This document shows, piece by piece, positions 75 to 51,639 of a DNA stretch of 64,000 nucleotides. The stretch is from the NCBI GenBank assembly GCA_041743715.1, contig JBGTMH010000045.1:18092-82091 (forward strand). The letters run 5' to 3'. Position numbers and translations under genes: made by a program. Numbering within the stretch: the first letter of the stretch is position 1; every line of letters starts with the position of its first letter. The DNA is from Patescibacteria group bacterium (lineage in GTDB: Bacteria > Patescibacteriota > Microgenomatia > Levybacterales > UBA12049). The notes below the pieces were generated by a model that saw nothing but the letters and a program-made list of their open reading frames with translations, searched no databases and was not told where the DNA came from.

Positions 75-103
75 TTGACCCCTCGAACCTGAAGTTTTAT
101 AAT
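75..103 (+). promoter_or_regulatory. sigma70-type promoter TTGACC-17 nt-TATAAT upstream of the phosphoketolase gene
   Basis: TTGACC at 75-80, exactly 17-nt spacer, TATAAT at 98-103. The -10 box overlaps the first ATG (102), so the in-frame ATG at 117 is the more likely start. Confidence 0.55.
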
Positions 104-2879
104 GCAAGATACTGCTATGGATAAAGCGATTGAGAACATACGAAAATATGTCAGGGCTGCGAATTATCTTTCTGTTACGCAGATTTATCTTCAAGATAAC
201 TTTCTCTTGCATCGTGCTCTGAAACCAACGGACATCAAACCCAAACTTTTCGGTCACTGGGGGACGTGTCCGGGGATTAATTTTGTCTATGGACACCTGA
301 ACTATTTAGTCAAAAAGCATCAGCAGTCTACAATTTTTGTGTTGGGTCCCGGGCACGGGATGCCGGGGTTACAGGCAAATTTATTCCTTGAGGGAACGCT
401 CCAGAAATATTATCCGCAAGCGACACGAGACGCAAAAGGTATTGGGTATATCTCGAAGATGTTTGCCTGGCCATATGGATTCTCAAGTCACGCGACTCCT
501 GAGGCTCCGGGGACGATACTTGAGGGAGGAGAGTTGGGGTATTCTTTGGCATCTGCTTATGGGGCGATTCTTGATAATCCTGATTTACTAGCTGTTACGT
601 TGATCGGTGATGGGGAAGCTGAAACAGGTGCCATCGCTGCAGCGTGGCATATTAATAAATTGATTGATCCGGCAACCAATGGCGCAGTTTTGCCGATTCT
701 CCATGTTAATGGATATAAAATTTCAGGACCGACAATTTTTGGCCGGATGAGTAATAAAGAATTAGAAGACTTATTCAGCGGGTATGGATACGAGCCGTTT
801 TTTGTGGAAGGCGAAAATATTGATGTACAGATGTTCACGACACTGGAAAAATGTTACCAAACCATAAAAGGAATCCAATCGACTGCACGTGAGAATCCAA
901 ATGCTTATAAACCCCGCTTCCCGATGATTGTTATGCGGACACCAAAGGGGATGACGACTGTGAAAGAATTGCGGGGGATAAAGATTGAAGGCACGATACT
1001 TGCGCATCAAGTCGTTATGCCAACAGTCCGTGGCGATGATCAGGAATTACATGCTCTCGAGGAGTGGCTTCGTTCCTATCATTTCGAAGAATTATTTGAT
1101 ACGGAAAAAGGGTTTGAAGACGCGATCTTGGATGTCATTCCACAGGACAGCCTTCTTATTGGAGATAATCGTGACGTCTTGGGTGGAACATATAAACCAC
1201 TTGTGCTTCCTGAGACAAAAAAATTGGCCAAACCTGTTGCTATGCCTGGAAAAGTTCAATCAAATGCCCTGCGTATGTCAGGTACCTATTTGAAAGAAAT
1301 CTTTCGTCTCAATAGTGAACAAAAGAATTTCCGACTTATGTCTCCTGATGAAACCTATTCAAATCGTCTGGACGAAGTTTTCCAAGTAACATCTCGAGGA
1401 TGGGTTTGGCCACATGATCCACAAGATCGTGATATCACCAGAGACGGAAGAGTCATGGAAATCCTTTCAGAGCACAATATGCATGGGCTGGCGCAGGGGT
1501 ATGTGTTGACCGGACGCCATGCTGTTTTTACCACCTATGAAGCATTCGCCCAAATCTTCTCAAGCATGGCACATATGTATCAGAAGTTTCTCAAATACGT
1601 ACGCAAGATGCCATGGCGGGAGGATATTGCATCGATGAATTATTTGTTAACTTCAACGGCTTGGCGGCAAGAGCACAATGGGTATTCTCATCAAAATCCG
1701 AGCTTTGTCTCAGGTATGCTGGAAAAACACAATGACTTCATAAAAGCATATTTCCCAGTAGATGATAACAGCATGCTTGCAGTGATGGAAGAGACGATGT
1801 CCTCCAAAAATCAAATGAATATTATCACTGCTGGTAAAACACCTGAGCCCCGATGGTTGACATATGAGCAAGCGAAAGAAACGTTAAAGACCGGTCTTCT
1901 GACGTGGGATTTTGCGAGTGATGAAAATCCTCATGTGGTATTGGTCGGAATCGGGGACTATGTTACCAAAGAAGCGCTTGCAGCGGTTGAATTAATTAAA
2001 AAAGACGCACCTGAAATTCGAGTACGCTTTGTGAATATCGCCCGTCTGCAAGCAGCCTGTTCCTGCGTTGGAGAGTTTCATCCACAACTTCCTGATGCTG
2101 AACGCCATTTTACTGTAGACAAACCGGTCATTATTAATTTCCACGGGTATCCCGAAGTGATGCAAGCGATGCTGACACACGTGAAGAATCCTGGACGTTT
2201 CTCAGTTCATGGGTATGTAGAAGAAGGTGGGACAACGACGCCGTTTGATATGCAGGTGAGAAATAAAACAGACCGTTATCATCTGGCAATTGAAGTATTG
2301 TATATAATGGAAAAAAATGGAATAGTAACGAGTGAAAAAGCACAAGAATTACAAGAGCAGTACAAAAAAGCATTGAACGATCATTATTCATATGTTACCG
2401 AAAACGGTGCTGATCCTATAGAGATTGAACAATGGCAATGGGATGGCGTTGTACCTGAAACAAATGTCGCGAGGGGTGTTGATCACGAAACAGTATTAAA
2501 AAATGCCCGCACGATTGCTTTTGTGGGACTATCAGATAAGCCAGAGCGGCACAGTCACAAAGTTGCAAAATATTTCCAGAAGAAAGGATACCGAGTTATC
2601 CCCGTTAACCCGAAGTTACAGGAAGTACTGGGCGAAAAATCTTATGCCAGCATAACGGAAATTCCAGGAGATATTCATATAGACATCGTCGATATCTTCC
2701 GCAAACCAACCGAAGTCATCCCCCACATGCAAGAAATTGTCGAGCGGGGCAACATAAGAACAGTCTGGCTCGCTGACGGAGTCAATACACACGAAGCCGA
2801 AGATTTCGCCGAAGACTATGGCCTTTCTCTCGTGACTAACTACTGTATCCTCGATGCGTATAAGGATATGCAGAAGTAG
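102..2879 (+). CDS. xfp: Xylulose-5-P/fructose-6-P phosphoketolase fused to a C-terminal CoA-binding (YccU/CoA_binding_2-like) domain
   Basis: 925-aa ORF. N-terminal ~790 aa is typical XFP (RAANYLSVTQIYLQDN, GHWGTCPG, EGGELGYS, GDGEAETG). The last ~135 aa (ARTIAFVGLSDKPERHSHKVAKYFQKKGYRVIPVNP...) match the small CoA-binding protein family. Likely true start is ATG 117. Confidence 0.9.
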   Translation: MQDTAMDKAIENIRKYVRAANYLSVTQIYLQDNFLLHRALKPTDIKPKLFGHWGTCPGINFVYGHLNYLVKKHQQSTIFVLGPGHGMPGLQANLFLEGTLQKYYPQATRDAKGIGYISKMFAWPYGFSSHATPEAPGTILEGGELGYSLASAYGAILDNPDLLAVTLIGDGEAETGAIAAAWHINKLIDPATNGAVLPILHVNGYKISGPTIFGRMSNKELEDLFSGYGYEPFFVEGENIDVQMFTTLEKCYQTIKGIQSTARENPNAYKPRFPMIVMRTPKGMTTVKELRGIKIEGTILAHQVVMPTVRGDDQELHALEEWLRSYHFEELFDTEKGFEDAILDVIPQDSLLIGDNRDVLGGTYKPLVLPETKKLAKPVAMPGKVQSNALRMSGTYLKEIFRLNSEQKNFRLMSPDETYSNRLDEVFQVTSRGWVWPHDPQDRDITRDGRVMEILSEHNMHGLAQGYVLTGRHAVFTTYEAFAQIFSSMAHMYQKFLKYVRKMPWREDIASMNYLLTSTAWRQEHNGYSHQNPSFVSGMLEKHNDFIKAYFPVDDNSMLAVMEETMSSKNQMNIITAGKTPEPRWLTYEQAKETLKTGLLTWDFASDENPHVVLVGIGDYVTKEALAAVELIKKDAPEIRVRFVNIARLQAACSCVGEFHPQLPDAERHFTVDKPVIINFHGYPEVMQAMLTHVKNPGRFSVHGYVEEGGTTTPFDMQVRNKTDRYHLAIEVLYIMEKNGIVTSEKAQELQEQYKKALNDHYSYVTENGADPIEIEQWQWDGVVPETNVARGVDHETVLKNARTIAFVGLSDKPERHSHKVAKYFQKKGYRVIPVNPKLQEVLGEKSYASITEIPGDIHIDIVDIFRKPTEVIPHMQEIVERGNIRTVWLADGVNTHEAEDFAEDYGLSLVTNYCILDAYKDMQK

Positions 2880-17976: not shown

Positions 17977-20214
17977 ATGTTTTGGGCGGATGAACTACTA
18001 AAAAAGAGAAAAGGAAAAGAGTGGGTGAATGATGCATGGACACCGTCAGGCATTGTTCATATGGGTGGTTTAAAGGGACCTGTAATTCATGATGTTCTTT
18101 ATAAAATCCTCAAGGAGCAGCAAAAAGATGTGACGTATACTTTTGGTTTTGATGATTTTGATCCGATAGACGGATTACCTCCAAGTCTTCAAGAATCTCA
18201 CAAAGCATATATGGGTATCCCAACATTTTTGGCGCCGTCGCCTGACGGTAATGGAACATTTGCAGATTTTTATGGCAATAAAATGCGAGCCATGTTTAAG
18301 GCAGTCGGAATCGAGACGACTATCTATCTGGCATCAGTTAATTATAAAAAAGGTGTCTACAACGATGGCATTAAAATAATGCTTGATGGTGTCAAAAAGG
18401 TCCGTCAGGTTTATGAAGAGATGTATAAAAAATCTGTGAAGAATGATTGGTACCCACTACAAGTAATATGTCCGAAGTGCGGAAAACTGGGAACAACCAA
18501 AGTAACTGATTGGGATGGAAAGGTCGTGACTTTTACTTGTATGTCTGATCTTGTCACGTGGGCTAAGGGGTGTGAATATACCGGAAAGATTTCTCCATTT
18601 GACGGGAATGCAAAGATGCCTTGGAAACCTGAGTGGTCGGTTAAATGGTATACATTCAAAGTAACAATTGAAGGTGCTGGAAAAGATCATATGTCTGCAG
18701 GGGGGTCGTTTGAAATTGCTGCAAATATCCTCAAAGCTGTCTTTAATCAAGAACCACCTATGGAATTACCATATGAATTTTTTCTTTGGAACGGAAAAAA
18801 AATGTCTTCCTCAAAAGGGCTCGGGTTAACAGCGGAAGAGCTGTTAGAAGTTTTGCCCCCGCAGTTGGTTAGGTTTTTAATGATCAAAACTGAACCAAAT
18901 CGAGCAGTAGAATTTAATCCTAAAGGCACAGATATCATCCCAAAACTATTTGATGAATACCAAAAAGCAGCAGATGCATATTTCAAGAACGGAGATAAAG
19001 ATTTAGCGAGAGTATTTGAATTGTCACAAATTGAAAAAATAAAAAAGCCACCAGTTGTCCGCTTTTCTGTTCTCGCCCAGTGGGTGCAGATGCCAAATAT
19101 GCAGCAGAAAATTACAGAGGAAGGGCTTGAAGAATGGGCAAAGTATGCGAGAGCTTGGTTAGAAAACTATGCCCCGGATTCAGAGAAGTTTTTCGTTCAG
19201 AAAGACTTACCAGAAGCTGCCAAGGATCTAACGAATCAACAAAAAGTGCTTTTACAAAAGATAGCAGCGGAGCTAAACAAGGACTGGGATGCAGAAGCAT
19301 TCCAAACGAGACTATATGATATTGGAAAAGAAGTAGGTCTCAATGGCAAAGAAACATTTACTGCGATTTACAAGGTTTTGATTGGGAAAGATCACGGACC
19401 CAAAGCTGCATGGTTAATTTTGTCGTTGGACAAAGAGTTTGTTAAAGAACGATTTGAAGAGGCTGCAAAAGAGAATCAAGAATCAGGAAGCAAGAATCAA
19501 GATGTATTTTTAGTTACTCGTTTGAATAAACCGGAAATTTTTTCTCTGAACTCGAAGGTTAAAGAGAAATATCCTTCAATATCAATCGGTATTGCAGTTA
19601 TTAAAGGAGTTACTGTCGAAAAAACACATCCATCGCTCGAGGAGGAAAAAGAAAAATTGCTTACATCATTGGAAGGTTTCACCACTGAGCAACTCGGTCA
19701 GAATCCTGAAATTATTAGTTATCGAAAGCTCTACAAAGAGATGGGAGTTGATTGGCATTCTCGCAGACCAAGCCCCGAAGCGCTACTTCGACGGGTTGCA
19801 CTCCACAAAGGATTGTACACCATTAATACATGCGTTGATGCATACAATCTTGTTGTTATGAAACGCAGAGTTTCAGTCGGTGCATTTGATTTCGATACAA
19901 TCGAATTTCCCACTGAACTTCGTTTTGCAAAATCAGGCGCAGAAATTTTACTTCTCGGCGATACAACACCTACGAAATACAAACCAACAGAGCTCGCGTA
20001 TTCTGACCAAAAAGGCGGATATAATATCGACTTTAATTTCCGCGACACGAAACGTACTGCTGTAAATCTTGAAACAAAAAATGTCTATATCAATGTCGAT
20101 GGTGTGTACGACATTACATCTGAAGAAGTAGAAAAAGTTTTGCGAGAAGCATGTGATGCAATATTAAAATATTGTGGCGGAAGTCTTGAAACATTTGGAG
20201 TAGAAGAAGTATAG
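17977..20214 (+). CDS. lysK: Class I lysine--tRNA ligase with a C-terminal B3/4-like (PheRS-beta editing-domain-like) extension
   Basis: The first ~505 aa are class I LysRS (PSGIVHMGGLKG, zinc knuckle CPKCGK, KMSSSKG). The region from aa ~509 to 745 (YRKLYKEMGVDWHSRRPSPEALLRRVALHKGLYTINTCVDAYNLVVMKRRVSVGAFDFD) matches stand-alone B3/4 domain proteins. Confidence 0.85.
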   Translation: MFWADELLKKRKGKEWVNDAWTPSGIVHMGGLKGPVIHDVLYKILKEQQKDVTYTFGFDDFDPIDGLPPSLQESHKAYMGIPTFLAPSPDGNGTFADFYGNKMRAMFKAVGIETTIYLASVNYKKGVYNDGIKIMLDGVKKVRQVYEEMYKKSVKNDWYPLQVICPKCGKLGTTKVTDWDGKVVTFTCMSDLVTWAKGCEYTGKISPFDGNAKMPWKPEWSVKWYTFKVTIEGAGKDHMSAGGSFEIAANILKAVFNQEPPMELPYEFFLWNGKKMSSSKGLGLTAEELLEVLPPQLVRFLMIKTEPNRAVEFNPKGTDIIPKLFDEYQKAADAYFKNGDKDLARVFELSQIEKIKKPPVVRFSVLAQWVQMPNMQQKITEEGLEEWAKYARAWLENYAPDSEKFFVQKDLPEAAKDLTNQQKVLLQKIAAELNKDWDAEAFQTRLYDIGKEVGLNGKETFTAIYKVLIGKDHGPKAAWLILSLDKEFVKERFEEAAKENQESGSKNQDVFLVTRLNKPEIFSLNSKVKEKYPSISIGIAVIKGVTVEKTHPSLEEEKEKLLTSLEGFTTEQLGQNPEIISYRKLYKEMGVDWHSRRPSPEALLRRVALHKGLYTINTCVDAYNLVVMKRRVSVGAFDFDTIEFPTELRFAKSGAEILLLGDTTPTKYKPTELAYSDQKGGYNIDFNFRDTKRTAVNLETKNVYINVDGVYDITSEEVEKVLREACDAILKYCGGSLETFGVEEV

Positions 20215-31121: not shown

Positions 31122-31481
31122 TTATTTCCGGTATGAAACAAGTAATTCTAGAGTGAGAAATAATGCAAAAAGTAAAATAAAGAAAAAAGGGTGGGTGAGG
31201 TTATTCAAACGAAAAACAAGATAAATAATAACGAAAGCTGCAATGAGTATCCCGTGCTTCTTGCTTTTAAAAATATACGTTCCGAATGAAAACAGAAAAA
31301 CTGCAAGTAAAATAAAAAAGAGCGGGAAAGGAGAAAGTTGGTTCCATTTAGTCCACGATGTTAAGGGTGGGAAGTCAAGTGTTGCTATCTGTCCATTAGG
31401 TGGGAAGTAATAAATAAGTGATGCAAGTAAGAGAAGACTTGCCATACTCAAGAGTAATAATAGCAGCGGTCGTTTTCTCAT
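31122..31481 (-). CDS. Small hypothetical membrane protein
   Basis: 119 aa with 4 hydrophobic segments. It begins 2 nt downstream of the Cys-rich pilin-fusion gene on the same strand. Confidence 0.5.
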   Translation of the reverse strand: MRKRPLLLLLLSMASLLLLASLIYYFPPNGQIATLDFPPLTSWTKWNQLSPFPLFFILLAVFLFSFGTYIFKSKKHGILIAAFVIIYLVFRLNNLTHPFFFILLFALFLTLELLVSYRK

Positions 31482-31483
31482 GC

Positions 31484-32776
31484 TTATGGGCCAAATTCAG
31501 GTATCCGGAGGATATCAAAGCCTATGACTTGGAGCAAGACAAACGAGAAAATGAGAAAAATAAGTCCCACAATGGCGGCGATTAATTGATCCCGGCCATT
31601 TTGCATTTTTTCAGGATTGCCTTGTGATGTCATCAGCTGGTACCCGGATTTGATAATTAAAAGAAGCGCAATGCCGCCCGACATACTGAGTAGAATAGCA
31701 AAAAGCCGGTTGATAAATCCTCCCGGTTCGGTTTTGAGATTTCCAACTGCTGTTCCGACCTCGGTACATTTTCCATTGTCCCAGGTAACACAAGGAGGTG
31801 ACGGGGGAGGAGGAATCTCTGGTATTCCGCATCGTATTCCTTTGACAGGAGCCCCGCCAAAGATTTTATCTTTAATTTCATAGATTGTCGAGTTTGGGTC
31901 ACTTATACAAGCCAGGCTTTGGGTTTTACAAAAACTTTTTTCCTCTTTACCAAACTGCTCACAAGTAAATCCATTTTTCCCATCGCCAGTTTGGTTAGGG
32001 GTGTCACACCGACACGTAGCTACTGGTCTTTTGCATGATATGCCACTGATATTATACCCTTGATTCCCAGTCAGCTTAGCAATAGCATCGCCAATAATAC
32101 CAGGACCTAATTTATCAAGAAAGCCAGTATAGTTTCCAACGGTATTCACATCAGTTGCTAAATTAGGAGTATTTTGACATTGATCAGTTGCACTTTTACA
32201 AGTTCCCCCTCCAGTCATAGCAGCAGCATCTTCTCCTTCTTTATAGCACTCAAAGAAGTTTTGTTTGTCAGTTCCCTGGGGACCTTTACATTTACAAATT
32301 GCTTTACCTTCCTTTTTCCCAGAGCACATCACTCCCCTAAGCTTGCGAGTGGCGTCAATCTGACCCCCATCTTTTATAGACCCACTGTCTATCTCTGCAT
32401 CAGACGGATTACACGCCATATCTTCGGTTTTGCAGAAATAAGGTTTCCCATCGCACGTAAAGCCGTTATTTCCAACGCCTGTTTGACCTGGTTTTGTGCA
32501 GGTACATTGCTCAAATACTTGCTTGACACACTTGCCTTTCAGAAGTATAGTTGGTTGATCACACCTGAATCCAGGATCACACCTTTGATTAAGCTCAGCT
32601 GAATCACAAGGTTGACCTTCTCCCACTGCTTCAACTGAAGGAATATTTTGGAATAGAGATCCTGCTATAAAAAGGAAAGATAATGTAAAAAGAAAATACT
32701 TCCTCACATATCCAGCATGGCAAAAAAATTGGAGAATTGCAAGAGCGTTACAGTAGTCCTTGACAAGGGTTGGCAC
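31484..32776 (-). CDS. Cysteine-rich secreted domain fused to a C-terminal TrbC/VirB2-like pilin module
   Basis: The C-terminal ~90 aa (GGIALLLIIKSGYQLMTSQGNPEKMQNGRDQLIAAIVGLIFLIFSFVLLQVIGFDILRIPEF) are paralogous to the 100-aa pilin at 38127. The ectodomain has 24 Cys (my count) and three CxC...NGFTC...FCKT...AC modules. The real start may be the internal GTG (VRKYFLF...). Confidence 0.7.
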   Translation of the reverse strand: MPTLVKDYCNALAILQFFCHAGYVRKYFLFTLSFLFIAGSLFQNIPSVEAVGEGQPCDSAELNQRCDPGFRCDQPTILLKGKCVKQVFEQCTCTKPGQTGVGNNGFTCDGKPYFCKTEDMACNPSDAEIDSGSIKDGGQIDATRKLRGVMCSGKKEGKAICKCKGPQGTDKQNFFECYKEGEDAAAMTGGGTCKSATDQCQNTPNLATDVNTVGNYTGFLDKLGPGIIGDAIAKLTGNQGYNISGISCKRPVATCRCDTPNQTGDGKNGFTCEQFGKEEKSFCKTQSLACISDPNSTIYEIKDKIFGGAPVKGIRCGIPEIPPPPSPPCVTWDNGKCTEVGTAVGNLKTEPGGFINRLFAILLSMSGGIALLLIIKSGYQLMTSQGNPEKMQNGRDQLIAAIVGLIFLIFSFVLLQVIGFDILRIPEFGP

Positions 32777-32796
32777 TCGTGTTATATTATTGCTAA
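32760..32796 (+). promoter_or_regulatory. hrcA promoter TTGACA-17-TATATT overlapped by a degenerate CIRCE-like inverted repeat
   Basis: TTGACA 32760-32765 and TATATT 32783-32788. TTGGCACTC-N9-TATTGCTAA at 32770-32796 compares with the CIRCE consensus TTAGCACTC-N9-GAGTGCTAA (1 + 2 mismatches). Confidence 0.55.
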
Positions 32797-32814
32797 TTCT
32801 GCCAATAGGAAGAT

Positions 32815-36145: not shown

Positions 36146-37099
36146 ATGATTACTCTTGAGGAAATAGATAGAAGAGGGTATGAATTTGTCTTTGGCGACC
36201 GCAGTTTTGTAGAGAACGCCCCAAATCAAACGATAAAACTTTTTGCGGCCCACGTGCATACTTCATACAGCGATGGCATTCATGCTCCAGAACAAGTTAT
36301 ATACGCTGCTGCATCGTTGGGCATTGACGCGATTACGTTAACTGATCATGATACCAATGAAGGGAATCTTGAGTTTGCTGAATTAATCAAAAGTTATGGT
36401 CTCGATAACTATCAAGGGGTAGAATATACGTCCTTTGTTGAACTGCCAAGTGGATTGTTACAACCAGCACATTTAATTGCTCAAAAAAACGAGAAAGGCA
36501 TAGAAACACCTTTGATTGTGCCCAAAAAAGTATTGCCTCCTGAAGAAGTTATTGTAGAAATGCACAATCAAAATGCTTCTGTAACAGGACCACATCCGAA
36601 TCATCACCACGACTCTCTAACAACACCAGTAATCATAAAAATACAATCAAATTCTGAACAAAGGAATAGATTGGATTTTCTTGAAGTTGACAATGGAGCT
36701 ATCCGTCAGTTAGAACATGTAGCCGATGTGTTGGGGCCTCTCGGGTGGATTATGCGGAAAATGGATAAAATACCTGCAGTCGGAGGCAACGAAGAAGCTA
36801 GAATAATCTATGAACATCTCAAAGATCGTAGGAATACGCTTCATCCTGTGAACGCAATAGCCGGGTCTGATTCACATAGAGCAGGTGATGTTGGAAAAAC
36901 AGTGGTGGGGTATTTAGGTGATAATCCGATTAAGGCAGCAAAATCAGGAGATATTATAATCCTTGCTCAAAAGCCAACCATGTATTCGTTCAGGGAATAT
37001 TTGCAGTTTCATCGGCGAGCTAAACGAGTGGATAATAATTGGCATAATCGAATGACTCGGCAAACAGCTCAAGGACGGGCTATGCTATCAGCGGCTTGA
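36146..37099 (+). CDS. PHP-domain (polymerase/histidinol phosphatase-like) metal-dependent phosphoesterase
   Basis: HVHTSYSDG...GIDAITLTDHDT and a late GSDSH motif. Inserted between dnaK and dnaJ. Confidence 0.7.
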   Translation: MITLEEIDRRGYEFVFGDRSFVENAPNQTIKLFAAHVHTSYSDGIHAPEQVIYAAASLGIDAITLTDHDTNEGNLEFAELIKSYGLDNYQGVEYTSFVELPSGLLQPAHLIAQKNEKGIETPLIVPKKVLPPEEVIVEMHNQNASVTGPHPNHHHDSLTTPVIIKIQSNSEQRNRLDFLEVDNGAIRQLEHVADVLGPLGWIMRKMDKIPAVGGNEEARIIYEHLKDRRNTLHPVNAIAGSDSHRAGDVGKTVVGYLGDNPIKAAKSGDIIILAQKPTMYSFREYLQFHRRAKRVDNNWHNRMTRQTAQGRAMLSAA

Positions 37100-38126: not shown

Positions 38127-38429
38127 ATGGCCAATTTTAACTGTTCGTTGAGCGAAATATCAACTGATCTGGGATGTTTCCCAAATGATCCGATTGGATT
38201 TGTACAGAAATTTTATGCTTATGGGTTGGGTTTTGTTGCCGGTATCGCGCTTCTCTCTCTTATTTGGGGAGGTTATTCCATTCTTATGTCAAAAGGCGAG
38301 CCATACAAGGTGAATATCGGAAAAAGCTATATTTTTTATGCAATTTGTGGATTACTCCTCGCCATTTTCGGTTATGTCTTTATCCAAGTAGTGGTAGTTG
38401 ACATATTGAAGGTTCCTGGGTTTAAATAG
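38127..38429 (+). CDS. TrbC/VirB2-like type IV secretion-type pilin (CPR 'pilin' family)
   Basis: 100 aa with two TM helices flanking SKGEPYKVNIGKS and a C-terminal VDILKVPGF. Paralogous to the C-terminus of the 31484-32776 product. No signal peptide in this frame (see findings). Confidence 0.7.
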   Translation: MANFNCSLSEISTDLGCFPNDPIGFVQKFYAYGLGFVAGIALLSLIWGGYSILMSKGEPYKVNIGKSYIFYAICGLLLAIFGYVFIQVVVVDILKVPGFK

Positions 38430-38435
38430 AGATAG

Positions 38436-41330
38436 ATGAAAAAATTACTGCCCTTATTGTTCGTTGGTGTTTTTGCGCTTGTCGTACTTTTATTGCCATC
38501 TTTAGTTTCTGCGCAGGGGATAGGTCCAGGCCGTCCTAATCCTATTCAACAACTACAGCCAAATCAAAATGCTTCCAGCAGTGCTCAACCTCAACCAGAG
38601 AATAGTTCAATCTGGGTCATTGATCCCGAGGTTACCTTCATAGGTAAGAATGCTGCCCGTGCAGGAGTGTTTTTGGACTGGACACTGAAAAATTACAATT
38701 GGGTTTGTGTCAATAAAGTCAATGAACGCCAATGTGATGACAGTAATAATCCAATTGCCAAATATTGGTCTTTGATCGTTCTCTATATCGTTGTTCCACT
38801 GCTTTTTGTGGTCATTTTATTCACCTCAGCTATTATTATCATTACCCGGGGCAAAAGCTTGACCATTATGCGTTTTATTCCTCGTTTTGTGGCTGTTGTT
38901 CTCTTGATTGTCTTCTCGTATTCGTTACTACAATTCTTTTACCAGTTTACAGATTTGATACAAGGCTTTTTCCTCAGGTCTGATATCAATAAGCCATGTC
39001 CGCCTGATTGTATCCAGCAAACAGACTTATTATATGTGGGTTGGAAATACAAAACCTTTATTGGTCTGCGTTTATTGGGAGATCAGAATGCTGAATCAGC
39101 CTTTATATCGCTTCTCTTAACCAAATTAACAGCACTCACCTATTTTGTAATGGTATTTTTGCTTCTGGTGAGAAAGATTATTTTATGGTTTTTCATTATT
39201 GTTTCACCTATTTTCCCAATACTTCTTCTTTTCTACCCTGTCCGAAACACAGGTAAAATTTGGATTGGTGAATTCTTTAGGTGGCTATTATATGCTCCAC
39301 TTTTTGCGATTTTCCTTAATGGTCTTGTCTATCTGTGGAAGAATCAAATCCCGCTCGTTTTTGTGAATCCGAACATCGGGAATGCAAGCCAAATCGTTTT
39401 CCCAACCGCTGTTAACATATTGTTGGGTGGTCCGAGACAGTTCGTGACGCCAACCAATAGTGTCAATTTAGTTGAAACATTTGCGCTCTATGTGGTATCA
39501 CTTATCATGCTTTGGATTGTCATTTTGCTACCATGGATTCTGTTGCAGATTTTTCTCGACTACGCCTCCAATTTTGCACCTGGGGATACTGCTGTGATGA
39601 AGACGCTTGTAAATATGGCATCAAATCGCCCATCCCAACCTGGTGGAGGCGGTGGTAGTCAGCCACCTTCTCAAGGAGGAGGAGCAACGCTCAACTTGCC
39701 GTTCTCTAAAAAGTTTTCTATTCCTAAGGATCTGCAAAACAAACCCGCAGGTGAGGCAAAGGAGATTAAGATTGATAATGCAACCCTTAGCAATGCAACC
39801 TTTAATAAACCAGCATTCATTCCTAATGCGACGGTAAATACTGTTAATGTCGCGACAAATGTACCAACAAGTACAAATGTTCCAATAAATACAGCCGCAA
39901 ATATACCGGCGAATGCAGAGGTACTGACTCTTGCGAAGGTGAAGCTTCCTACGATGCGAGATATTGCGAAATATGATACCGCGCTTACCTCTCGTAGCCA
40001 GACCAAGCTCCAAGATGTTGCTGTTACGACACAGGCTCTTATAAGTATTGCCAATCCAGCTGTTTCGACTGTTGATAAAGAGCAGTACACAGAAATTCGT
40101 GAAAAAATCGTTGAGAAAAGTCAGCAAGGAAATATCATGGCTAGCTCTATACTCAATGCCGCAAAAGTTGCTTCTCAAAAAAATACCCAAGTGTCCAATC
40201 AGCAAGTGAAAGAATCGCTGAAGCAAATGGCAAATCCTGCGTCAGCCCCGAATACCAATAGAGACAAGATGAGTCGATTGAACAATATGCTTCAAAAAGA
40301 AAGCAGTACGAATAATAATCAAATTGCATCAAAAATTTTGAAAGTGTCTGATAAGACATCAGATAAAGAAATAGAATCACTGAAAAATAATCTCTCAGCA
40401 ACAGCGTCGAGCCATGTAAGTAAATCAGTTAATTCAGCCATCTCTCATGATGCACAAGCAACAACAAAGATAAAGGATGTGCTGAAGCAAGTAGCAGCAC
40501 CTGTTTCTGGAGCTACGGCACCAGGAGCTAAATCTGCTGCACCGCAACAGGTGACAAAGCTTCGTGGCACTTTAGAAAAAGCAAGCAAAGAAGGAAATCA
40601 GCTTGCAACATCTATACTCAAAGTTAATGATAAAACATCAGCTGATGAGATAGTAGCTCTTCAGAAGAAAATTCAAGAAGCAAAAGCAAAAGGTGAACCA
40701 GTTGCGACCGAGGTTGCAGCATTGGCTGAGCAGACTGCTGCACTGCCTACAGTAAACAGAGTACAGACAGTGAGCAAAGAAGACTACCAGGCGGTACGGG
40801 ATATGTGGAAACAAAATTACCAGAATCTAGAGGTACCTCAAGGTATGGCTGGTACACGTGCAGAGTGGATTAAGGACGATATAGCAAGTATCGATGAGAC
40901 AATTGGTTTACTTTCCTCTTCAGATCAAGACAAAGTCGAAGAAGGTATGGAGCAAGTATCCAATCTTATGCCCTTCCTGATGATGGGTGGTTTCTCTCAG
41001 ACAGAAATTGTTGATTACTTAAAAGCCAAACAAGATGCTGCCAAAGATATATCTCAGGTACTTACGAAAGAAGAAGAAGAACAAGTGACTGTCGGAACCA
41101 AACACGTTGCAGCAGAAGGTCACTTGGAAGCAACATTGGAAGATGATGAAAAGTCACCTGAGCAAAAAGCGAAGGAGGAAAACAATGCCGAAATCAAACC
41201 AGAAGGCCAGGAGAAGGAAAAACAAGCAGAAGACGCGAGTAAAACACCTACTGTAGATAAAGAGCCAGAAGACCCAATGGATAAAGTTGAGGCTGTAGAA
41301 AATGATAAGAACAAACCTGAAAATAAATAA
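38436..41330 (+). CDS. Large polytopic membrane protein with a long C-terminal repeat-containing tail
   Basis: 964 aa: signal peptide (LVSAQG), ~7 TM helices up to aa ~390, G/P/S linker (PSQPGGGGGSQPPSQGGG), three copies of a helical module (nt 40008-40735), then an acidic tail. Position next to the pilin is reminiscent of TrbL/VirB6, but I cannot verify homology. Confidence 0.7.
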   Translation: MKKLLPLLFVGVFALVVLLLPSLVSAQGIGPGRPNPIQQLQPNQNASSSAQPQPENSSIWVIDPEVTFIGKNAARAGVFLDWTLKNYNWVCVNKVNERQCDDSNNPIAKYWSLIVLYIVVPLLFVVILFTSAIIIITRGKSLTIMRFIPRFVAVVLLIVFSYSLLQFFYQFTDLIQGFFLRSDINKPCPPDCIQQTDLLYVGWKYKTFIGLRLLGDQNAESAFISLLLTKLTALTYFVMVFLLLVRKIILWFFIIVSPIFPILLLFYPVRNTGKIWIGEFFRWLLYAPLFAIFLNGLVYLWKNQIPLVFVNPNIGNASQIVFPTAVNILLGGPRQFVTPTNSVNLVETFALYVVSLIMLWIVILLPWILLQIFLDYASNFAPGDTAVMKTLVNMASNRPSQPGGGGGSQPPSQGGGATLNLPFSKKFSIPKDLQNKPAGEAKEIKIDNATLSNATFNKPAFIPNATVNTVNVATNVPTSTNVPINTAANIPANAEVLTLAKVKLPTMRDIAKYDTALTSRSQTKLQDVAVTTQALISIANPAVSTVDKEQYTEIREKIVEKSQQGNIMASSILNAAKVASQKNTQVSNQQVKESLKQMANPASAPNTNRDKMSRLNNMLQKESSTNNNQIASKILKVSDKTSDKEIESLKNNLSATASSHVSKSVNSAISHDAQATTKIKDVLKQVAAPVSGATAPGAKSAAPQQVTKLRGTLEKASKEGNQLATSILKVNDKTSADEIVALQKKIQEAKAKGEPVATEVAALAEQTAALPTVNRVQTVSKEDYQAVRDMWKQNYQNLEVPQGMAGTRAEWIKDDIASIDETIGLLSSSDQDKVEEGMEQVSNLMPFLMMGGFSQTEIVDYLKAKQDAAKDISQVLTKEEEEQVTVGTKHVAAEGHLEATLEDDEKSPEQKAKEENNAEIKPEGQEKEKQAEDASKTPTVDKEPEDPMDKVEAVENDKNKPENK

Positions 41331-41376: not shown

Positions 41377-44300
41377 ATGTTTGGAAGTATTTTTAATCAA
41401 AAGAAAAATCAAGATCAGGCTGCGCCACCGCAGCCAAATCAGGCACCTGCTGATGGTTCTCAGCCTGCTCAGACAGCTTCTGCTGATCCAAATGCAGAAC
41501 AACTCCAACCACAAACGCCTCAAACGCAGCCTCCTACTGGGGGTGCTCAAGATCCCAATGCGCCACAGACAGCTGGGGGTACTCCCCAAGATCCAAACGC
41601 TCCTCAGGATCCTAATGCTCCGCAAGATCCAAATGCACCGAAAGATCCAAACGCTCCCCAGGATCCTAATGCTCCGAAGGATCCAAACGCTCCACAAGAT
41701 CCAAATGCAGCAGGAAAACCGGGGCAGCCGGGACAACCAGGTGCAAAACCTGATCCAAATAACCCTGTAGCAGCGGCCAATGCATCGGCGCTCAGTCATC
41801 TTGATCCGCGTGCTACTCAGGTGCTCACACATGCACAGGAAGAGACCAAGCGAATAAAACAGCAGATGGTCGAACCTGACCAAATTCTGATTGGACTCCT
41901 CTATGATGAGAAAATTTTTGCCTCCCTTAAGGAATTACAAGCAGATGGCGGTGTCATCTCCAAAGAAATTCAAGCTGCTGAAAAAATGGGTGTGTATAAA
42001 GGTCAGCCCACGCTGAGTAAACCGTCTCAAGAAATATTTGAGCAGGCATATCGCGACTCAAAAATGCGCGGTGCGAATTTCATTACACCTGAGGATATTT
42101 TTGTTGTTATGTTCGATCCTAAGTATTCAACGTCCAAATTTTTGGAGAAACATAATCTTAAAAAAGATATGGTCGTTGAAAAATTGGCAAAGGACCCCAA
42201 ACTTAACTTTGCCAAGAGAACAGTTCTTGAAAAATATGGTATTGATTTAACAGAAGAAGCTCGTGCAGGAAAGCTGGACCCTGTTGCCGGTCGAGACAAA
42301 GAAATGGACCGAATGGTACATATTCTCCTGCGAAGAACCAAAAACAATCCTATAATCATTGGAGAAACCGGTGTTGGAAAAACCGCTATTGTCGAGGGAT
42401 TGGCGCAAAAGATTGTCGCGGGTACAGTCCCCAAGGATTTGTTAGAAAAACGAATTTTTCAGTTGGATGTCGCGTCCCTTATTGCCGGGGCGAGTCACCG
42501 TGGAGAATTTGAAGAGCGATTAAAGGAAGTTATTAATGAAGTACTTGGTTCCAACAACCGCATTATTTTGTTTATCGATGAAATCCACTCACTTATGGGA
42601 AATGGTGATGGTGAAGGTATGAATGCCGCCAATATCATAAAACCCCACTTGGCTCGCGGTCACTTTCAACTGATTGGTGCAACGACGACGATTGAGTATC
42701 GAAAGAATTTTGAAAAAGATAAAGCGTTTGAACGTCGTTTCCAGCCTGTCACAGCTGAGGAACCGAGTGAAGAAAACGCGTTTGAGATGATGAAGGTGCT
42801 TCGTCCGAAATATGAGAAGTTTCATAAAATCCAATTCCCTGATGAGGCGCTGAAAGAATGTGTCAAATTATCCAAAAAATACATTGGTGAGCGCTACCTT
42901 CCTGATAAAGCAATTGATTTACTTGATGAAGCATCAGCTGAAGTAAAATTACAGATTGATGCAGGTAATCGCGGTGGCGGCGACAGTGTGGTTAAAAAAA
43001 CTGACATTGAAAAAGTGGTCAGTGCATGGACAGGAATTCCAATTACGAAGTTGACAGAGGATGAAAGTGAGAAATTACTCAAGCTTGAAGATCGTATCCA
43101 CAAACGATTGATTGATCAAGAACAGGCAGTGGGTGCGGTTTCGGAAGCCGTCAGACGTGGAAGAATTGGACTGGCAGCTGCCAATAGACCGATTGCCTCA
43201 TTTGTTTTCCTCGGACCAACCGGTGTTGGAAAAACAGAACTTGCCAAAACGCTTGCAGAGTTGCTTTTTGGAAAAGATGATGCTATGGCTCGACTGGATA
43301 TGTCAGAGTACATGGAAAAGCATGAGGTCGCCAAGCTCATCGGTGCGCCTCCAGGATATGTCGGTTATGAGGAAGGTGGACAGCTGACTGAAGCGGTTCG
43401 TAAAAAGCCTTATTCAATTGTGCTTCTAGACGAAATTGAGAAAGCACATCCTGATGTGTTTAATATCTTGCTGCAGCTTTTGGAGGACGGACGACTGACT
43501 GATAATAAAGGTAATACAATTTCCTTTAAAAATACGATTGTTATTTGTACCAGTAACATTGGAAGTCAGACGATTCAGAAATATTTGAGTCAGATTGATC
43601 CGAAAGCGAAAAAGAATACAGAACAATCCGAAAAAGTCTTTAAAGAACTCTCCGATAAGGTCAAAGACGAGTTAATCAAATTCTTCAGACCTGAGCTTCT
43701 CAATCGTTTTGATGAGGTTGTTATCTTTAAGCCATTGTTGATGGAGCACATGGCAGGTATCGCGCGTCTAGGTATTTCCAAAACTGCAAAGCTTCTCAAG
43801 GAGCAAGGATACGGTTTGCAAATTACTGAAAAGGCAATAGCACAGTTGGCAAAGGACGGATACGATCCTGTTTATGGAGCACGACCTTTGAGGAGACTTA
43901 TCCAAACTGCTATTGAAAATCCTATTGCTTTGGCTATTATTTCCAAAAAGTTTGTACCCGGAGATACGATTGTTATTGATTTTAGCGAGAACACCAATGA
44001 ATTCACCTTTAGTAAAGATGGTGGCAAAGAAGATTTGGCACCGTTGACTGATGAGCAATTCCGAACTGTCTTGTCACAACTTGCCAATCCTGACACAGTC
44101 ACCAATGCTCTTGACCGGCAGCATTTCGCGGAAGTACATGACAAGTTGATACTCGCACGGTCTGAAAATAATAAGACCGCGACTGCTATCTTGGAAGTGA
44201 CTGTTACAACTGACGTTGCAAAAATTAAAGCCATACGAAAAGAACTTGATGATGCAAAAGCCAAAGGTGATGCGTTGGCGCAAGAAATTTTAGAGTTGGC

Positions 44301-51204: not shown

Positions 51205-51639
51205 ATGAATCTCAACTTTCATATCACGTTTAATTTTTTGAATGTAAAGATTAATATTCTTAGTATAATTGTATTATCAGTTTTGCTTAGTATATTTTTT
51301 ACCCAAACTGGTAGTGCTGCAAGTTTTCAGCTTTCAGGAGTGGTATCAGATAATTCGAATATTCCAATCGCAAAGGCAAGCATAGAGGTTATTAATACAG
51401 ATACAAATACTGTTGTTGCTCGTACAGAAAGCAGTGCCGATGGATACTATAATATTGTATTGGAAGGCGGATCATATACAATAAAAGTTACGTCGATTGA
51501 CAGTAGTGATTTGAAACCAGATATTTCACTATATCAAACAATTGCTAAGGACACTGTTTTTAATATTATTATTGTATCTGATTCTTCTGATCCGAAGAGG
51601 CATCTCTATAATATAATTACAAACCCGTTTTACAAATAA
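51205..51639 (+). CDS. Secreted carboxypeptidase-regulatory-like (CarboxypepD_reg) domain protein
   Basis: Signal anchor, then LSGVVSDNSNIPIAKASIEVINTDTNTVVARTESSADGYYNIVLEGGSYTIKV. Confidence 0.6.
   Translation: MNLNFHITFNFLNVKINILSIIVLSVLLSIFFTQTGSAASFQLSGVVSDNSNIPIAKASIEVINTDTNTVVARTESSADGYYNIVLEGGSYTIKVTSIDSSDLKPDISLYQTIAKDTVFNIIIVSDSSDPKRHLYNIITNPFYK

What the first reader, a model, noticed from the sequence alone, without database searches (positions are those of the whole stretch)
31484..32776. Pilin module fused to a 24-cysteine ectodomain with three CxC...NGFTC...FCKT...AC repeats
The C-terminal ~90 aa align residue-for-residue in pattern with the 100-aa pilin at 38127 (G-Y-x-L-M-x-S-x-G-x-P-x-K...A-I-x-G-L...Q-V...D-I-L-(K/R)-(V/I)-P-x-F). 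They are preceded by about 330 aa rich in Cys (24, an even number), Gly and Asp. This part contains three related modules (for example CTCTKPGQTGVGNNGFTCDGKPYFCKTEDMACNPSD and CRCDTPNQTGDGKNGFTCEQFGKEEKSFCKTQSLACISDPNS) and a PPPPSPP hinge. If the pilin part polymerises, this would display a disulfide-knotted head on a filament, making it a possible adhesin or tip pilin. It is transcribed divergently from hrcA.
Basis: partly seen in the sequence, partly recalled or inferred. Interest (0 to 1): 0.55.

Follow-up and report, generated by a model that had tools for sequence, protein, structure and literature searches.

The report
Pilin carrying a swappable cysteine-rich head
An uncultivated ultra-small bacterium (Levybacteria, candidate phyla radiation) encodes a secretion-system pilin whose outward-facing end carries three copies of an undescribed disulfide-rich module; related genomes keep the pilin anchor but swap or rewrite this head, as expected for a protein that contacts a host or partner cell.

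Summary
The ORF at 31484-32776 (-) ends in a VirB2-like pilin hairpin (Pfam PF18895, 37.4 bits against a cut-off of 26.6). This is preceded by a PPPPSPP hinge and an ectodomain with 24 Cys, laid out as 4 + 3x6 + 2. The three CxC modules are true repeats with six invariant Cys.

One correction: the first 23 codons overlap the hrcA promoter and its CIRCE operator. The real start is probably the GTG at 32707, giving a 407-aa precursor with a 27-aa signal peptide.

An exhaustive profile search found only 52 related clusters among 1.84 billion proteins. 52 of the 53 family sequences match the same pilin Pfam family, and the head has no Pfam match. The single module folds confidently (pLDDT 91) as a five-stranded beta domain with no PDB match.

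In about 18 Levybacteria genomes the gene sits in the same slot (hrcA | pilin | 119-aa membrane protein | metG). The hinge and pilin parts are conserved (55-81%). The head is 13-50% identical, or is replaced by unrelated Cys-rich or Ig-like domains.

Best reading: a modular T4SS-type pilin with a constant anchor and a hypervariable surface head, probably for cell contact. Whether it polymerises is untested. I rate it a new variant of a known kind.

The parts
31484..32776 (-).
31484..32707 (-). Probable true CDS: GTG start at 32707, a 407-aa precursor beginning MRKYFLF...
   Evidence: Most family members start M[KR]KY. Codons upstream overlap the hrcA promoter and CIRCE.
32627..32707 (-). Sec-type signal peptide (ORF residues 24-50), predicted cleavage VEA|VGEG
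   Evidence: The sequence has a K/R n-region, a hydrophobic core and an AxA-like site. Not tested with a dedicated predictor.
32516..32626 (-). Distal 4-Cys cap (residues 51-87), the least conserved part (13-25% identity to orthologues)
32312..32515 (-). CxC six-Cys module 1 (residues 88-155)
32027..32311 (-). CxC six-Cys module 2 (residues 156-250), with an insertion of about 25 aa that is partly helical and predicted with low confidence
31817..32026 (-). CxC six-Cys module 3 (residues 251-320). Modelled alone it gives a five-stranded beta domain with pLDDT 91.
31727..31816 (-). Polyproline hinge PPPPSPP plus a 2-Cys loop (C329...C337), residues 321-350. DNA-level conservation with other genomes resumes here.
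31487..31726 (-). VirB2-like pilin hairpin (residues 351-430): two hydrophobic helices joined by the loop SQGNPEKMQNGRDQ
   Evidence: PF18895 at 37.4 bits. AF2 helices at 351-383 and 388-422. Hydropathy.
31122..31481 (-). Co-directional 119-aa membrane protein with four hydrophobic segments, 2 nt downstream. Conserved next to the pilin gene in all syntenic loci; role unknown.
   Evidence: No terminator lies between the two genes.
32714..32742 (-). Candidate promoter of the pilin gene: TTGCAA, 17 nt, (TG)C-CATGCT, ending 6 nt before the GTG. This would give a leaderless or near-leaderless mRNA.
   Evidence: The block is conserved in syntenic intergenic regions. It did not pass the consensus scan, so it is an inference.
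32760..32796 (+). hrcA promoter (TTGACA-17-TATATT) overlapping a CIRCE-like operator TTGGCACTC-N9-TATTGCTAA. This is a boundary feature that explains the spurious N-terminal 'conservation'.
38127..38429 (+). Short 100-aa paralogous pilin, a candidate partner or major subunit
   Evidence: z=30 against the C-terminus of the fusion. PF18895 at 16.7 bits, below the cut-off. Conserved at 58-77% identity in syntenic loci.
38436..41330 (+). 964-aa protein with a signal peptide, six TM segments and a long hydrophilic tail, directly after the short pilin. It resembles an 'extended VirB6' in architecture only.
   Evidence: No family or PDB match.

Best explanation
The gene encodes a modular VirB2-type (PF18895) pilin of a Levybacteria (Patescibacteria/CPR) bacterium.

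Inferred steps:
1. The precursor is exported by Sec and its 27-aa signal peptide is removed.
2. The two C-terminal helices insert as a hairpin with both ends outside the cell.
3. The roughly 300-aa N-terminal part folds outside the membrane into a disulfide-stabilised stalk. From the anchor outward this is a 2-Cys loop, a polyproline hinge, three tandem six-Cys beta modules and a distal 4-Cys cap.

Shown: the hinge and pilin part is a constant anchor. The head is a hypervariable cassette, and the tip-most parts diverge fastest. In sister genomes the head is replaced by unrelated Cys-rich or Ig-like domains.

Inferred function: the head presents a lineage-specific binding surface to the host or partner cell of this presumably epibiotic bacterium. 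I consider it most likely that the protein is a minor or tip subunit that co-assembles through its pilin domain with short pilins such as the 100-aa paralogue 5 kb away. My sub-probability for that assembly is about 0.35-0.4.
For: Pilin membership:
- PF18895 scores above the curated cut-off.
- 52 of 53 family members match it.
- AF2 gives a two-helix hairpin whose best local PDB match is the Aeropyrum conjugation pilin 8dfu (prob 0.80, TM 0.61).
- The same pilin family sits in a monoderm conjugation cluster with VirB3-like and VirB4 genes.

Head outside the cell and oxidised:
- A signal peptide is present, and 42 of 44 family members have even Cys counts.
- An orthologue carries PG_binding_1 after the second helix. 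That places this end of the hairpin outside the cell, which is the VirB2 topology.
- CPR genomes are enriched in MdbA-like oxidoreductases and VKOR (bioRxiv 10.1101/335083).

The module is a real domain: six invariant Cys and pLDDT 91 for a single module.

Constant anchor, variable head:
- Identity to orthologues rises from cap 13-25% to pilin 65-81%.
- Neighbouring HrcA is 81-91% and DnaK 81-93% identical.
- DNA alignability with syntenic genomes is lost across roughly 31814-32685 and, in the nine loci where it resumes within the gene, does so at or just after the hinge (L003 vs L015).
- The syntenic slot holds different head types.
- Tandem copies in L005 and L014 share 94% and 88% DNA identity over the hinge and pilin only.

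Context from the literature: VirB2-like pilin arrays are widespread in Patescibacteria, sequence-divergent, and essential in S. epibionticum (PMC12102498, PMC10633639).
Against: - No VirB4, VirD4 or other T4SS machine gene lies within the 64-kb window.
- The neighbouring short pilin scores below the Pfam threshold.
- A mature subunit of about 380 aa is 3-4 times the size of any characterised VirB2 pilin, and dense packing in a VirB2-type helix may be sterically hard. This is my estimate from published F-pilus geometry and was not computed here.
- No binding partner, expression data or filament evidence exists.
- Disulfide connectivity is unknown.
- The hairpin's match to solved conjugative pilins is not statistically significant (E=3).
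- The PG-binding tail in one orthologue could equally mean that the protein stays in the membrane under the cell's own wall.
Confidence: 0.5

Rival explanations
1. It is a membrane-anchored surface protein that never polymerises. The pilin-like hairpin serves only as a two-helix anchor, and the polyproline hinge lifts the Cys-rich head through the cell wall or S-layer. The head still acts in cell contact or as a receptor.
For: - Heads of 300-600 aa sit on the same anchor.
- One orthologue has a PG_binding_1 tail.
- There are no T4SS ATPase genes nearby.
- The gene sits among housekeeping genes (hrcA, metG).
Against: - The anchor is conserved far more strongly (65-81%, with many invariant positions) than a mere membrane anchor would need.
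- It remains recognisably the same family as short 84-198-aa pilins and as pilins in VirB4 clusters.
- The paralogous short pilin is conserved 5 kb away.
Confidence: 0.33
2. It is a structural envelope component, for example a wall-spanning spacer or coat protein. In this reading its variability reflects phage or predator evasion rather than host binding.
For: - The stalk is rod-like, repetitive and disulfide-rich.
- Surface proteins under phage pressure also show hypervariable distal parts (general knowledge).
Against: - The family is small and patchy: 52 clusters at 50% identity among 1.84 billion proteins.
- Wholesale replacement by unrelated domains argues against a fixed structural role.
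Confidence: 0.1
3. It is the precursor of a released Cys-rich effector, toxin or antimicrobial peptide. The head would be cleaved off at the hinge, and the pilin part would be an export or retention device.
For: The weak, non-significant best fold neighbours of the module are small disulfide-rich beta proteins, namely PAF-type antifungal proteins at TM 0.33-0.37.
Against: - No processing motif is conserved at the hinge apart from polyproline.
- The modules are concatenated and the last strand of one leads directly into the next.
- The Foldseek matches are at chance level (E>1).
- Some relatives carry further modules after the second helix as well.
Confidence: 0.05

Closest known systems
VirB2-like pilins of the Patescibacteria T4SS (Pfam PF18895 T4SS_pilin), e.g. 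the essential six-pilin array of Southlakia epibionticum ML1 and the arrays catalogued by Quinonero-Coronel et al. 2025 (PMC12102498; PMC10633639; PMC12857230)
   Same: It belongs to the same Pfam family above threshold and has the same two-helix hairpin. It comes from the same phylum, whose Microgenomatia class is rich in such pilins. Paralogous pilins in one genome are sequence-divergent in both cases, and both are proposed to act in host interaction.
   Different: The described pilins are small; the ones retrieved here are 84-198 aa. Here about 300 aa of disulfide-rich modules are grafted between the signal peptide and the hairpin. The gene is not in a pilin array or next to virB4 but in a fixed slot beside hrcA. 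In the described arrays the variation affects the pilin itself, whereas here it affects a separate head and the pilin is the constant part. The papers I could search do not mention such fusions.
Mbov_0395-family pilin-like conjugal transfer proteins of monoderm ICEs and plasmids (NCBIfam NF045849)
   Same: The C-terminus gives a sub-threshold match (26.3 bits, cut-off 40). The only plasmid relative (31% identity) is annotated as this family. It lies in a cluster ordered two pilins, a 779-aa protein, a TraL/VirB3-like protein, a TrsD-like protein, VirB4 and a PG hydrolase.
   Different: The score is below the family's curated cut-off. Those proteins are about 150 aa and lack a Cys-rich head. 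They are encoded on mobile elements, whereas this gene sits in a chromosomal housekeeping neighbourhood.
Modular type IV pilins of Streptococcus sanguinis (PilB with a vWA module, PilC with a lectin module). Recalled from the literature and not checked here; functional analogue only.
   Same: The design principle is the same: a pilin polymerisation module fused to a bulky functional or adhesive module, so that the filament displays it.
   Different: It is an unrelated pilin superfamily (type IV pili with a class III signal peptide and prepilin peptidase). The module is grafted at the C-terminus rather than the N-terminus. No such signal is present in this protein.
Variable pilus-associated T4SS components such as Bartonella Trw TrwL/TrwJ (VirB2/VirB5 paralogues) and VirB5 tip adhesins. 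Cited in PMC12102498 as precedent for pilin variation.
   Same: In both, T4SS surface components diversify to match host surfaces.
   Different: Those are whole-gene paralogues or a separate tip protein (VirB5). They are not a pilin with a grafted head, and they occur in diderm systems.
Small disulfide-rich beta domains (PAF-type antifungal proteins, knottins such as Evasin-3, CBM14)
   Same: They have a similar size (57-70 aa), three disulfides and mostly beta structure.
   Different: There is no significant structural or sequence match: best E=1.7 and TM at most 0.41 for the module, and factor H CCP at E=0.05 by sequence. The CxC...C...C...C...C spacing matches no Pfam family.

Membership tests
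PF18895 T4SS_pilin / VirB2-like conjugative pilins | Match to the family HMM above the curated gathering score | tested here: met
   37.4 bits against 26.6, residues 351-418, profile positions 5-71 of 71. 52 of 53 relatives also match.
PF18895 T4SS_pilin / VirB2-like conjugative pilins | Two hydrophobic helices joined by a short polar or basic loop, forming a helical hairpin | tested here: met
   AF2 helices at 351-383 and 388-422 with pLDDT of about 83-86. Hydropathy peaks. The loop is SQGNPEKMQNGRDQ.
PF18895 T4SS_pilin / VirB2-like conjugative pilins | N-terminal signal or leader peptide, with both termini of the hairpin on the outer face | tested here: inconclusive
   A signal-peptide-like N-terminus is seen by inspection. 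An orthologue has PG_binding_1 after helix 2, and relatives have Cys-rich tails there. No dedicated predictor or experiment was available.
PF18895 T4SS_pilin / VirB2-like conjugative pilins | Small mature subunit (roughly 70-130 aa) | tested here: not met
   The mature protein is about 380 aa. Typical relatives are 84-198 aa.
PF18895 T4SS_pilin / VirB2-like conjugative pilins | Encoded with T4SS machinery (VirB4, VirB3, VirB6 and others) | tested here: not met
   No VirB4 or VirD4 was found among the ORFs of at least 110 aa in the 64-kb window. Only a short pilin and a polytopic 964-aa protein lie about 5.3 kb away. The rest of the genome was not available.
PF18895 T4SS_pilin / VirB2-like conjugative pilins | Polymerises into an extracellular pilus | not testable with these tools
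   This needs multimer modelling, cryo-EM/ET or biochemistry.
NCBIfam NF045849, Mbov_0395 family pilin-like conjugal transfer protein | Score above the curated cut-off (40 bits) | tested here: not met
   26.3 bits, E=4.4e-6.
Type IV pilins, including modular type IV pilins | Class III signal peptide with the prepilin-peptidase site (G/FTLxE) and an N-terminal hydrophobic alpha-1 helix | tested here: not met
   The N-terminus is a classical Sec signal (MRKYFLF...VEA|VGEG) with no G-F-T-L-I-E motif. No T4P Pfam match was found.
Sortase-anchored Gram-positive pilins and adhesins | C-terminal LPXTG sorting signal | tested here: not met
   No LPxTG occurs in the sequence, which ends ...DILRIPEFGP.
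Known Cys-rich domain families (EGF, knottin, granulin, CCP/sushi, PAF, CBM14) | Significant HMM or fold match | tested here: not met
   No Pfam family matches at E<=1 other than the pilin domain and a weak TctB hit, both on the C-terminal hairpin. PDB profile searches gave nothing. Foldseek gave E>=0.12 for the full model and E>=1.7 for the module.

The most novel reading that the evidence does not exclude
Levybacteria build a T4SS-type pilus, or a pilin-based surface array, that works as a natural display scaffold. A constant VirB2-like subunit is fused at a polyproline joint to interchangeable receptor-binding heads. These heads are exchanged by recombination between the conserved signal-peptide and hinge-pilin sequences, and they determine which host cell the epibiont can attach to. 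The six-Cys CxC module would then be a new disulfide-rich fold dedicated to this recognition.
Probability: 0.3. Interest if true: 0.8.

Novelty: new variant of a known kind. Interest (0 to 1): 0.6.

Why it matters
Almost nothing is known about how the many uncultivated CPR/Patescibacteria lineages outside Saccharibacteria recognise and hold on to their hosts. VirB2-like pilins are known to be abundant in the phylum and essential in its one genetically tractable member, but what they do is an open question.

A pilin whose anchor is constant and whose outward head is the most variable stretch of an otherwise well-conserved chromosomal neighbourhood is a concrete candidate specificity determinant. 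It is testable in several ways:
- The heads can be expressed and used as probes for host cells or ligands.
- The locus can be tracked in metagenomes as a marker of host range.
- The fusion asks whether VirB2-type filaments can carry large cargo, which bears on T4SS pilus assembly and on engineering display scaffolds.

The CxC module also adds a confidently predicted disulfide-rich domain with no match in Pfam or the PDB.

Tried and rejected
1. Long TraA/VirB2-like leader peptide. The N-terminal 'MPxLVK...FCHA' segment seemed conserved with P0001 and others. I rejected this reading because the segment overlaps the hrcA promoter and CIRCE, and the conservation is at DNA level.

2. Known fold or enzyme for the head. 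I tried Pfam and NCBIfam, PDB sequence profiles, and Foldseek against PDB and BFVD with the full model and a single-module model. Nothing was significant.

3. Dsb/VKOR/MdbA in the window. None was found among the scanned ORFs. The rest of the genome was not available.

4. Exact look-up of the window protein in public assemblies with either start codon. It is not on record.

5. Word-indexed homologue search with the head. It found only one relative, and the exhaustive profile search was needed.

6. Length distribution of PF18895 proteins from the word-indexed search. The list showed only proteins under 200 aa and omitted known long members, so it cannot be used as an unbiased census.

7. Structure prediction of the 964-aa neighbour with orthologues taken from loci. 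A PDB profile search gave nothing. Comparison with the 779-aa protein of the Pontibacillus T4SS cluster was not significant (E=0.026). 'VirB6-like' therefore remains an architectural guess.

8. Disulfide connectivity could not be derived, because no coordinates are returned and no family member lacks a Cys pair.

9. DGR-type mutagenesis as the source of variability. No reverse transcriptase was seen in the window, and the variation is by domain replacement rather than point hypermutation.
Full report
**1. What is in the sequence**

The minus strand carries an uninterrupted ORF at 31484..32776 (430 codons). Its translation has 26 Cys. Two of them (C9, C19) lie upstream of a typical signal peptide (RKYFLFTLSFLFIAGSLFQNIPSVEA|VGEG), and 24 lie in the predicted mature protein.

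The 24 Cys are arranged as follows:
- a 4-Cys cap (C57, 66, 72, 83);
- three six-Cys units that each begin with CxC (C91/93..151, C161/163..248, C255/257..316);
- a pair (C329, C337) right after a PPPPSPP stretch.

Against 1000 shuffles, module 1 vs 3 scores z=14.2 and module 2 vs 3 scores z=5.7. Module 1 vs 2 is not significant on its own, because module 2 carries an insertion of about 25 aa.

The last 80 or so residues match Pfam PF18895 (T4SS_pilin) at 37.4 bits against a gathering score of 26.6. They align with the 100-aa ORF at 38127..38429 at z=30. That short ORF is itself only a sub-threshold PF18895 match (16.7 bits). These are the only two pilin-domain ORFs in the window.

**2. Correction of the start**

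The first 23 codons of the maximal ORF overlap the divergent hrcA promoter. That promoter reads TTGACA-17-TATATT at 32760-32788 on the plus strand, 11 of 12 matches. They also overlap a CIRCE-like inverted repeat, TTGGCACTC-N9-TATTGCTAA, at 32770-32796.

An alignment of 19 syntenic intergenic regions shows three elements in order:
- a conserved CIRCE/promoter block;
- a spacer of variable length;
- a conserved TTGCAA-17 nt-CATGCT block ending 6 nt before a GTG or ATG that is followed by (R/K)K codons.

Most family members begin M(K/R)KY. I therefore place the start at the GTG at 32707. This gives a 407-aa precursor, possibly translated from a leaderless or near-leaderless mRNA (inference). My first idea was that 'MPTLVK...FCHA' represents a long TraA-like leader conserved with P0001. 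I rejected it because that conservation belongs to regulatory DNA.

**3. Relatives**

A word-indexed search with the ectodomain found a single relative (P0001, 44% identity over the full length, same architecture).

An exhaustive HMM search with a profile of the two ectodomains found 52 clusters (50% identity level) among 1.84 billion proteins. Of these, 28 had E<=1e-10. All share the same organisation: a signal peptide, one to about five CxC modules, sometimes other Cys-rich repeats, a P-rich hinge ending in an invariant Cys, a second Cys 5-13 residues later, and then the pilin hairpin. Many carry further 4-Cys modules after the second helix.

Of the 53 family sequences, 52 match PF18895, and no other Pfam family is matched. 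NCBI names the long forms simply 'pilin'.

A crude signal-peptide cut leaves an even number of Cys in 42 of 44 proteins. This is strong indirect evidence that all the Cys are paired.

An alignment of 52 single modules has six invariant Cys plus a nearly invariant Asn and Gly. The consensus is CxC-x2-PG-x2-GxGxNGFxC-x~11-C-x6-C-x~25-GIxC.

**4. Structure**

AlphaFold2 with the 53-sequence alignment gave mean pLDDT 82. It predicts beta-rich modules (pLDDT above 90 in modules 1 and 3), a low-confidence helical insert in module 2, and two long helices at 351-383 and 388-422.

A single module modelled with the 52-module alignment gave pLDDT 91 and pTM 0.75, with five strands.

Foldseek found nothing significant:
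- Full model against PDB: best E=0.2. The hairpin's best local neighbour is the Aeropyrum pernix conjugation pilin 8dfu, with prob 0.80 and TM 0.61 over 65 columns but E=3.
- Full model against BFVD: best E=0.12.
- Single module against PDB: best E=1.7 and TM at most 0.41. The nearest look-alikes are PAF-type antifungal proteins and CBM14, at chance level.

PDB sequence-profile searches were also empty. So the head is not a known enzyme or adhesin fold. The module is best described as an unclassified disulfide-rich beta domain. The disulfide connectivity could not be read because no coordinates were available.

**5. Genomic context and the key comparative result**

The window is from a Levybacteria-type CPR genome. 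Its relatives in GTDB genomes are mostly labelled Candidatus Levyibacteriota.

Around the gene lie housekeeping genes:
- on one side metG, tatD and glycosyltransferases;
- on the other side hrcA-grpE-dnaK-(PHP)-dnaJ, then the short pilin, a 964-aa polytopic protein and a ClpB-like protein.

This order is conserved in about 18 genomes: ClpB-like <- 964-aa <- short pilin <- dnaJ <- dnaK <- grpE <- hrcA | -> pilin fusion -> 119-aa membrane protein -> metG -> tatD.

In that fixed slot the hinge and pilin part is 55-72% identical to the window protein. What precedes it differs between genomes:
- CxC modules in the window and in L001, L003, L004, L005b, L006, L007, L008, L010 and L023;
- other Cys-rich repeats in L005a, L011, L012, L014b, L016, L017 and L019-L021 (L013 combines such repeats with one CxC module);
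- Cys-poor, apparently Ig-like domains of about 400 aa in L014a and L018, in the same slot; L024 has a similar head, but no hrcA-side neighbours were found in that locus.

No head type matches a Pfam family.

Among orthologues that do share CxC modules, identity rises steadily from the distal end towards the anchor:

| Region | Identity to orthologues |
|---|---|
| 4-Cys cap | 13-25% |
| Module 1 | 21-32% |
| Module 2 | 18-40% |
| Module 3 | 24-51% |
| Hinge | 33-65% |
| Pilin | 65-81% |

For comparison, HrcA is 81-91% identical and DnaK 81-93%.

At DNA level, alignability between the window and every syntenic locus stops at about 32685-32814, that is, in the intergenic region or the first signal-peptide codons. 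In nine loci it resumes within the gene at about 31705-31813, at or just after the hinge; in the others it resumes only downstream of the gene. L003 and L015 show the same pattern, with flanks 82% and 78% identical and heads that cannot be aligned.

Two genomes carry tandem copies. Their DNA is 94% identical (L005) and 88% identical (L014), but only over the hinge and pilin segment, and the heads are unrelated.

The gene is thus built as a constant anchor plus a hypervariable, exchangeable head.

**6. Topology and chemistry**

One orthologue (L017) has two PG_binding_1 stretches (57.8 bits) after the second helix. Others have Cys-rich tails in that position. So the C-terminal end of the hairpin is extracytoplasmic. 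Together with the signal peptide, this gives the N-out/C-out topology known for VirB2/TraA pilins (established knowledge).

No thiol-disulfide oxidoreductase or VKOR is encoded among the scanned ORFs of the window. CPR genomes as a group are enriched in MdbA-like oxidoreductases with adjacent VKOR (bioRxiv 10.1101/335083), so extracytoplasmic disulfide formation is plausible. It was not shown for this genome.

**7. Link to type IV secretion**

The literature I could search establishes the following (PMC12102498, PMC10633639, PMC12857230):
- PF18895/VirB2-like pilins occur in about 1,950 Patescibacteria assemblies.
- They are often found in arrays of 2-11 divergent copies, especially in Microgenomatia and Saccharimonadia.
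- The pilin array in the T4SS locus of S. epibionticum is essential for epibiotic growth.

None of these texts mentions pilins with grafted Cys-rich or other ectodomains. Further searches for 'T4SS_pilin' and for 'cysteine-rich' with 'pilin' and CPR also found nothing on this point.

The only plasmid relative of the pilin part is an 'Mbov_0395 family pilin-like conjugal transfer protein' on a Pontibacillus megaplasmid. It lies in a cluster ordered two pilins, a 779-aa protein, a TraL/VirB3-like protein, a TrsD-like protein, VirB4 and a PG endopeptidase.

The window's pair of a short pilin and a 964-aa polytopic protein (signal peptide, six TM segments and a long hydrophilic tail) resembles the first two genes of that order. 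However, I could not demonstrate homology to VirB6 or PrgH. No VirB4 is present in the 64 kb.

**8. Mechanism**

Shown:
- pilin-family membership of the C-terminus;
- a secreted, repeat-built head that is in all likelihood fully disulfide-bonded and has a confidently predicted new module;
- a constant-anchor, variable-head organisation with a distal-to-proximal conservation gradient, in a fixed chromosomal slot.

Inferred: the head is a lineage-specific contact surface for the host or partner cell.

Open: whether the anchor polymerises.
- From published F-pilus geometry (recalled, not computed here), each subunit has roughly 26 x 26 Å of outer surface. An elongated stalk on a polyproline spacer could be tolerated sparsely or at a tip, but a homopolymer would be crowded.
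- The anchor is conserved far beyond what a simple membrane anchor needs, and a short paralogue is conserved nearby.
- I therefore favour co-assembly as a minor or tip subunit (about 0.35-0.4). The anchor-only surface protein is a close rival (about 0.33).

**9. Verdict**

In novelty terms this is a new variant of a known kind. It is a modular VirB2-type pilin, whereas the known Patescibacteria pilins are small and vary as whole genes. Its repeated module has no counterpart in Pfam or the PDB.

Interest is 0.6. It is not a new kind of system, but it gives a concrete and testable candidate for host-specificity determinants in an uncultivated lineage, and it raises a real question for T4SS pilus biology.

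Noticed in passing
window 38436-41330 and 41377-45675: The hydrophilic C-terminal half (residues 545-961) of the 964-aa polytopic membrane protein is homologous to the C-terminal extension (residues 944-1324) of the adjacent 1432-aa ClpB-like double-AAA+ protein (blastp E=1.4e-28, 24% identity over 433 aa). Both carry repeats of the type '...GNxLAxxILxVxDxTSxxEIxxL...AKAxGDxLAxEIL'. The gene order short pilin, polytopic protein, ClpB-like is conserved in Levybacteria. This could mean that an AAA+ unfoldase is recruited to a pilin-associated membrane protein.
   Followed up: partly
window 32760-32796 (+): The hrcA promoter (TTGACA-17-TATATT) overlaps a CIRCE-like operator, TTGGCACTC-N9-TATTGCTAA, which has 3 mismatches to the consensus. 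The block is highly conserved across Levybacteria loci and lies inside the maximal ORF of the pilin gene. Gene callers that extend the ORF therefore produce a spurious conserved N-terminus ('MPxLVK').
   Followed up: yes
window 32705-32742 (-): A conserved TTGCAA-17 nt-CATGCT block ends only 6 nt before the GTG or ATG start of the pilin gene in many Levybacteria loci. This suggests a leaderless or near-leaderless transcript with a GTG start. It did not pass the consensus promoter scan.
   Followed up: partly
L005 7332-9765 and L014 4411-7065: Tandem pilin-fusion genes have hinge and pilin segments that are 94% and 88% identical at DNA level, with completely unrelated heads (a Cys-rich repeat head next to CxC modules in L005; an Ig-like head next to a Cys-rich head in L014). 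The repeated constant segments would be natural substrates for head swapping by homologous recombination.
   Followed up: partly
L017 7383-8747: The syntenic orthologue carries two PG_binding_1 stretches (57.8 bits) after the second pilin helix. A peptidoglycan-binding tail on a pilin-family protein is unusual, and it could target either the cell's own wall or the host's.
   Followed up: partly
window 31122-31481 (-): A 119-aa protein with four hydrophobic segments follows the pilin gene after a 2-nt gap and is conserved in that position in all syntenic loci (43-64% identity). It has no family match beyond a weak DUF2157 hit. It may be a dedicated partner of the pilin fusion.
   Followed up: partly
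window 36146-37099 (+): A PHP-domain protein is inserted between dnaK and dnaJ. tblastn found no counterpart in any of the syntenic Levybacteria loci.
   Followed up: no
window 17977-20214 (+) and 102-2879 (+): Two unusual fusions among the housekeeping genes: a class I lysyl-tRNA synthetase with a C-terminal B3_4 domain (745 aa), and a phosphoketolase (XFP) with a C-terminal CoA_binding_2 domain (925 aa).
   Followed up: no
window 53569-55695 (+) and 51205-51639 (+): These look like further surface proteins: a 708-aa protein with CarboxypepD_reg and SdrD_B repeats, and a 144-aa CarboxypepD_reg protein. They flank a TPR/PMT_2-like 590-aa membrane protein.
   Followed up: no
L003, L006, L010, L013, L015, L023, L024 (record titles): Several MAGs that share the Levybacteria synteny and have 80-90% identical HrcA and DnaK are titled 'uncultured Gammaproteobacteria bacterium' (and others Acidiferrales, Sulfotelmatobacter, Limnocylindrales, Actinomycetota) in their public records. 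These labels look wrong.
   Followed up: no
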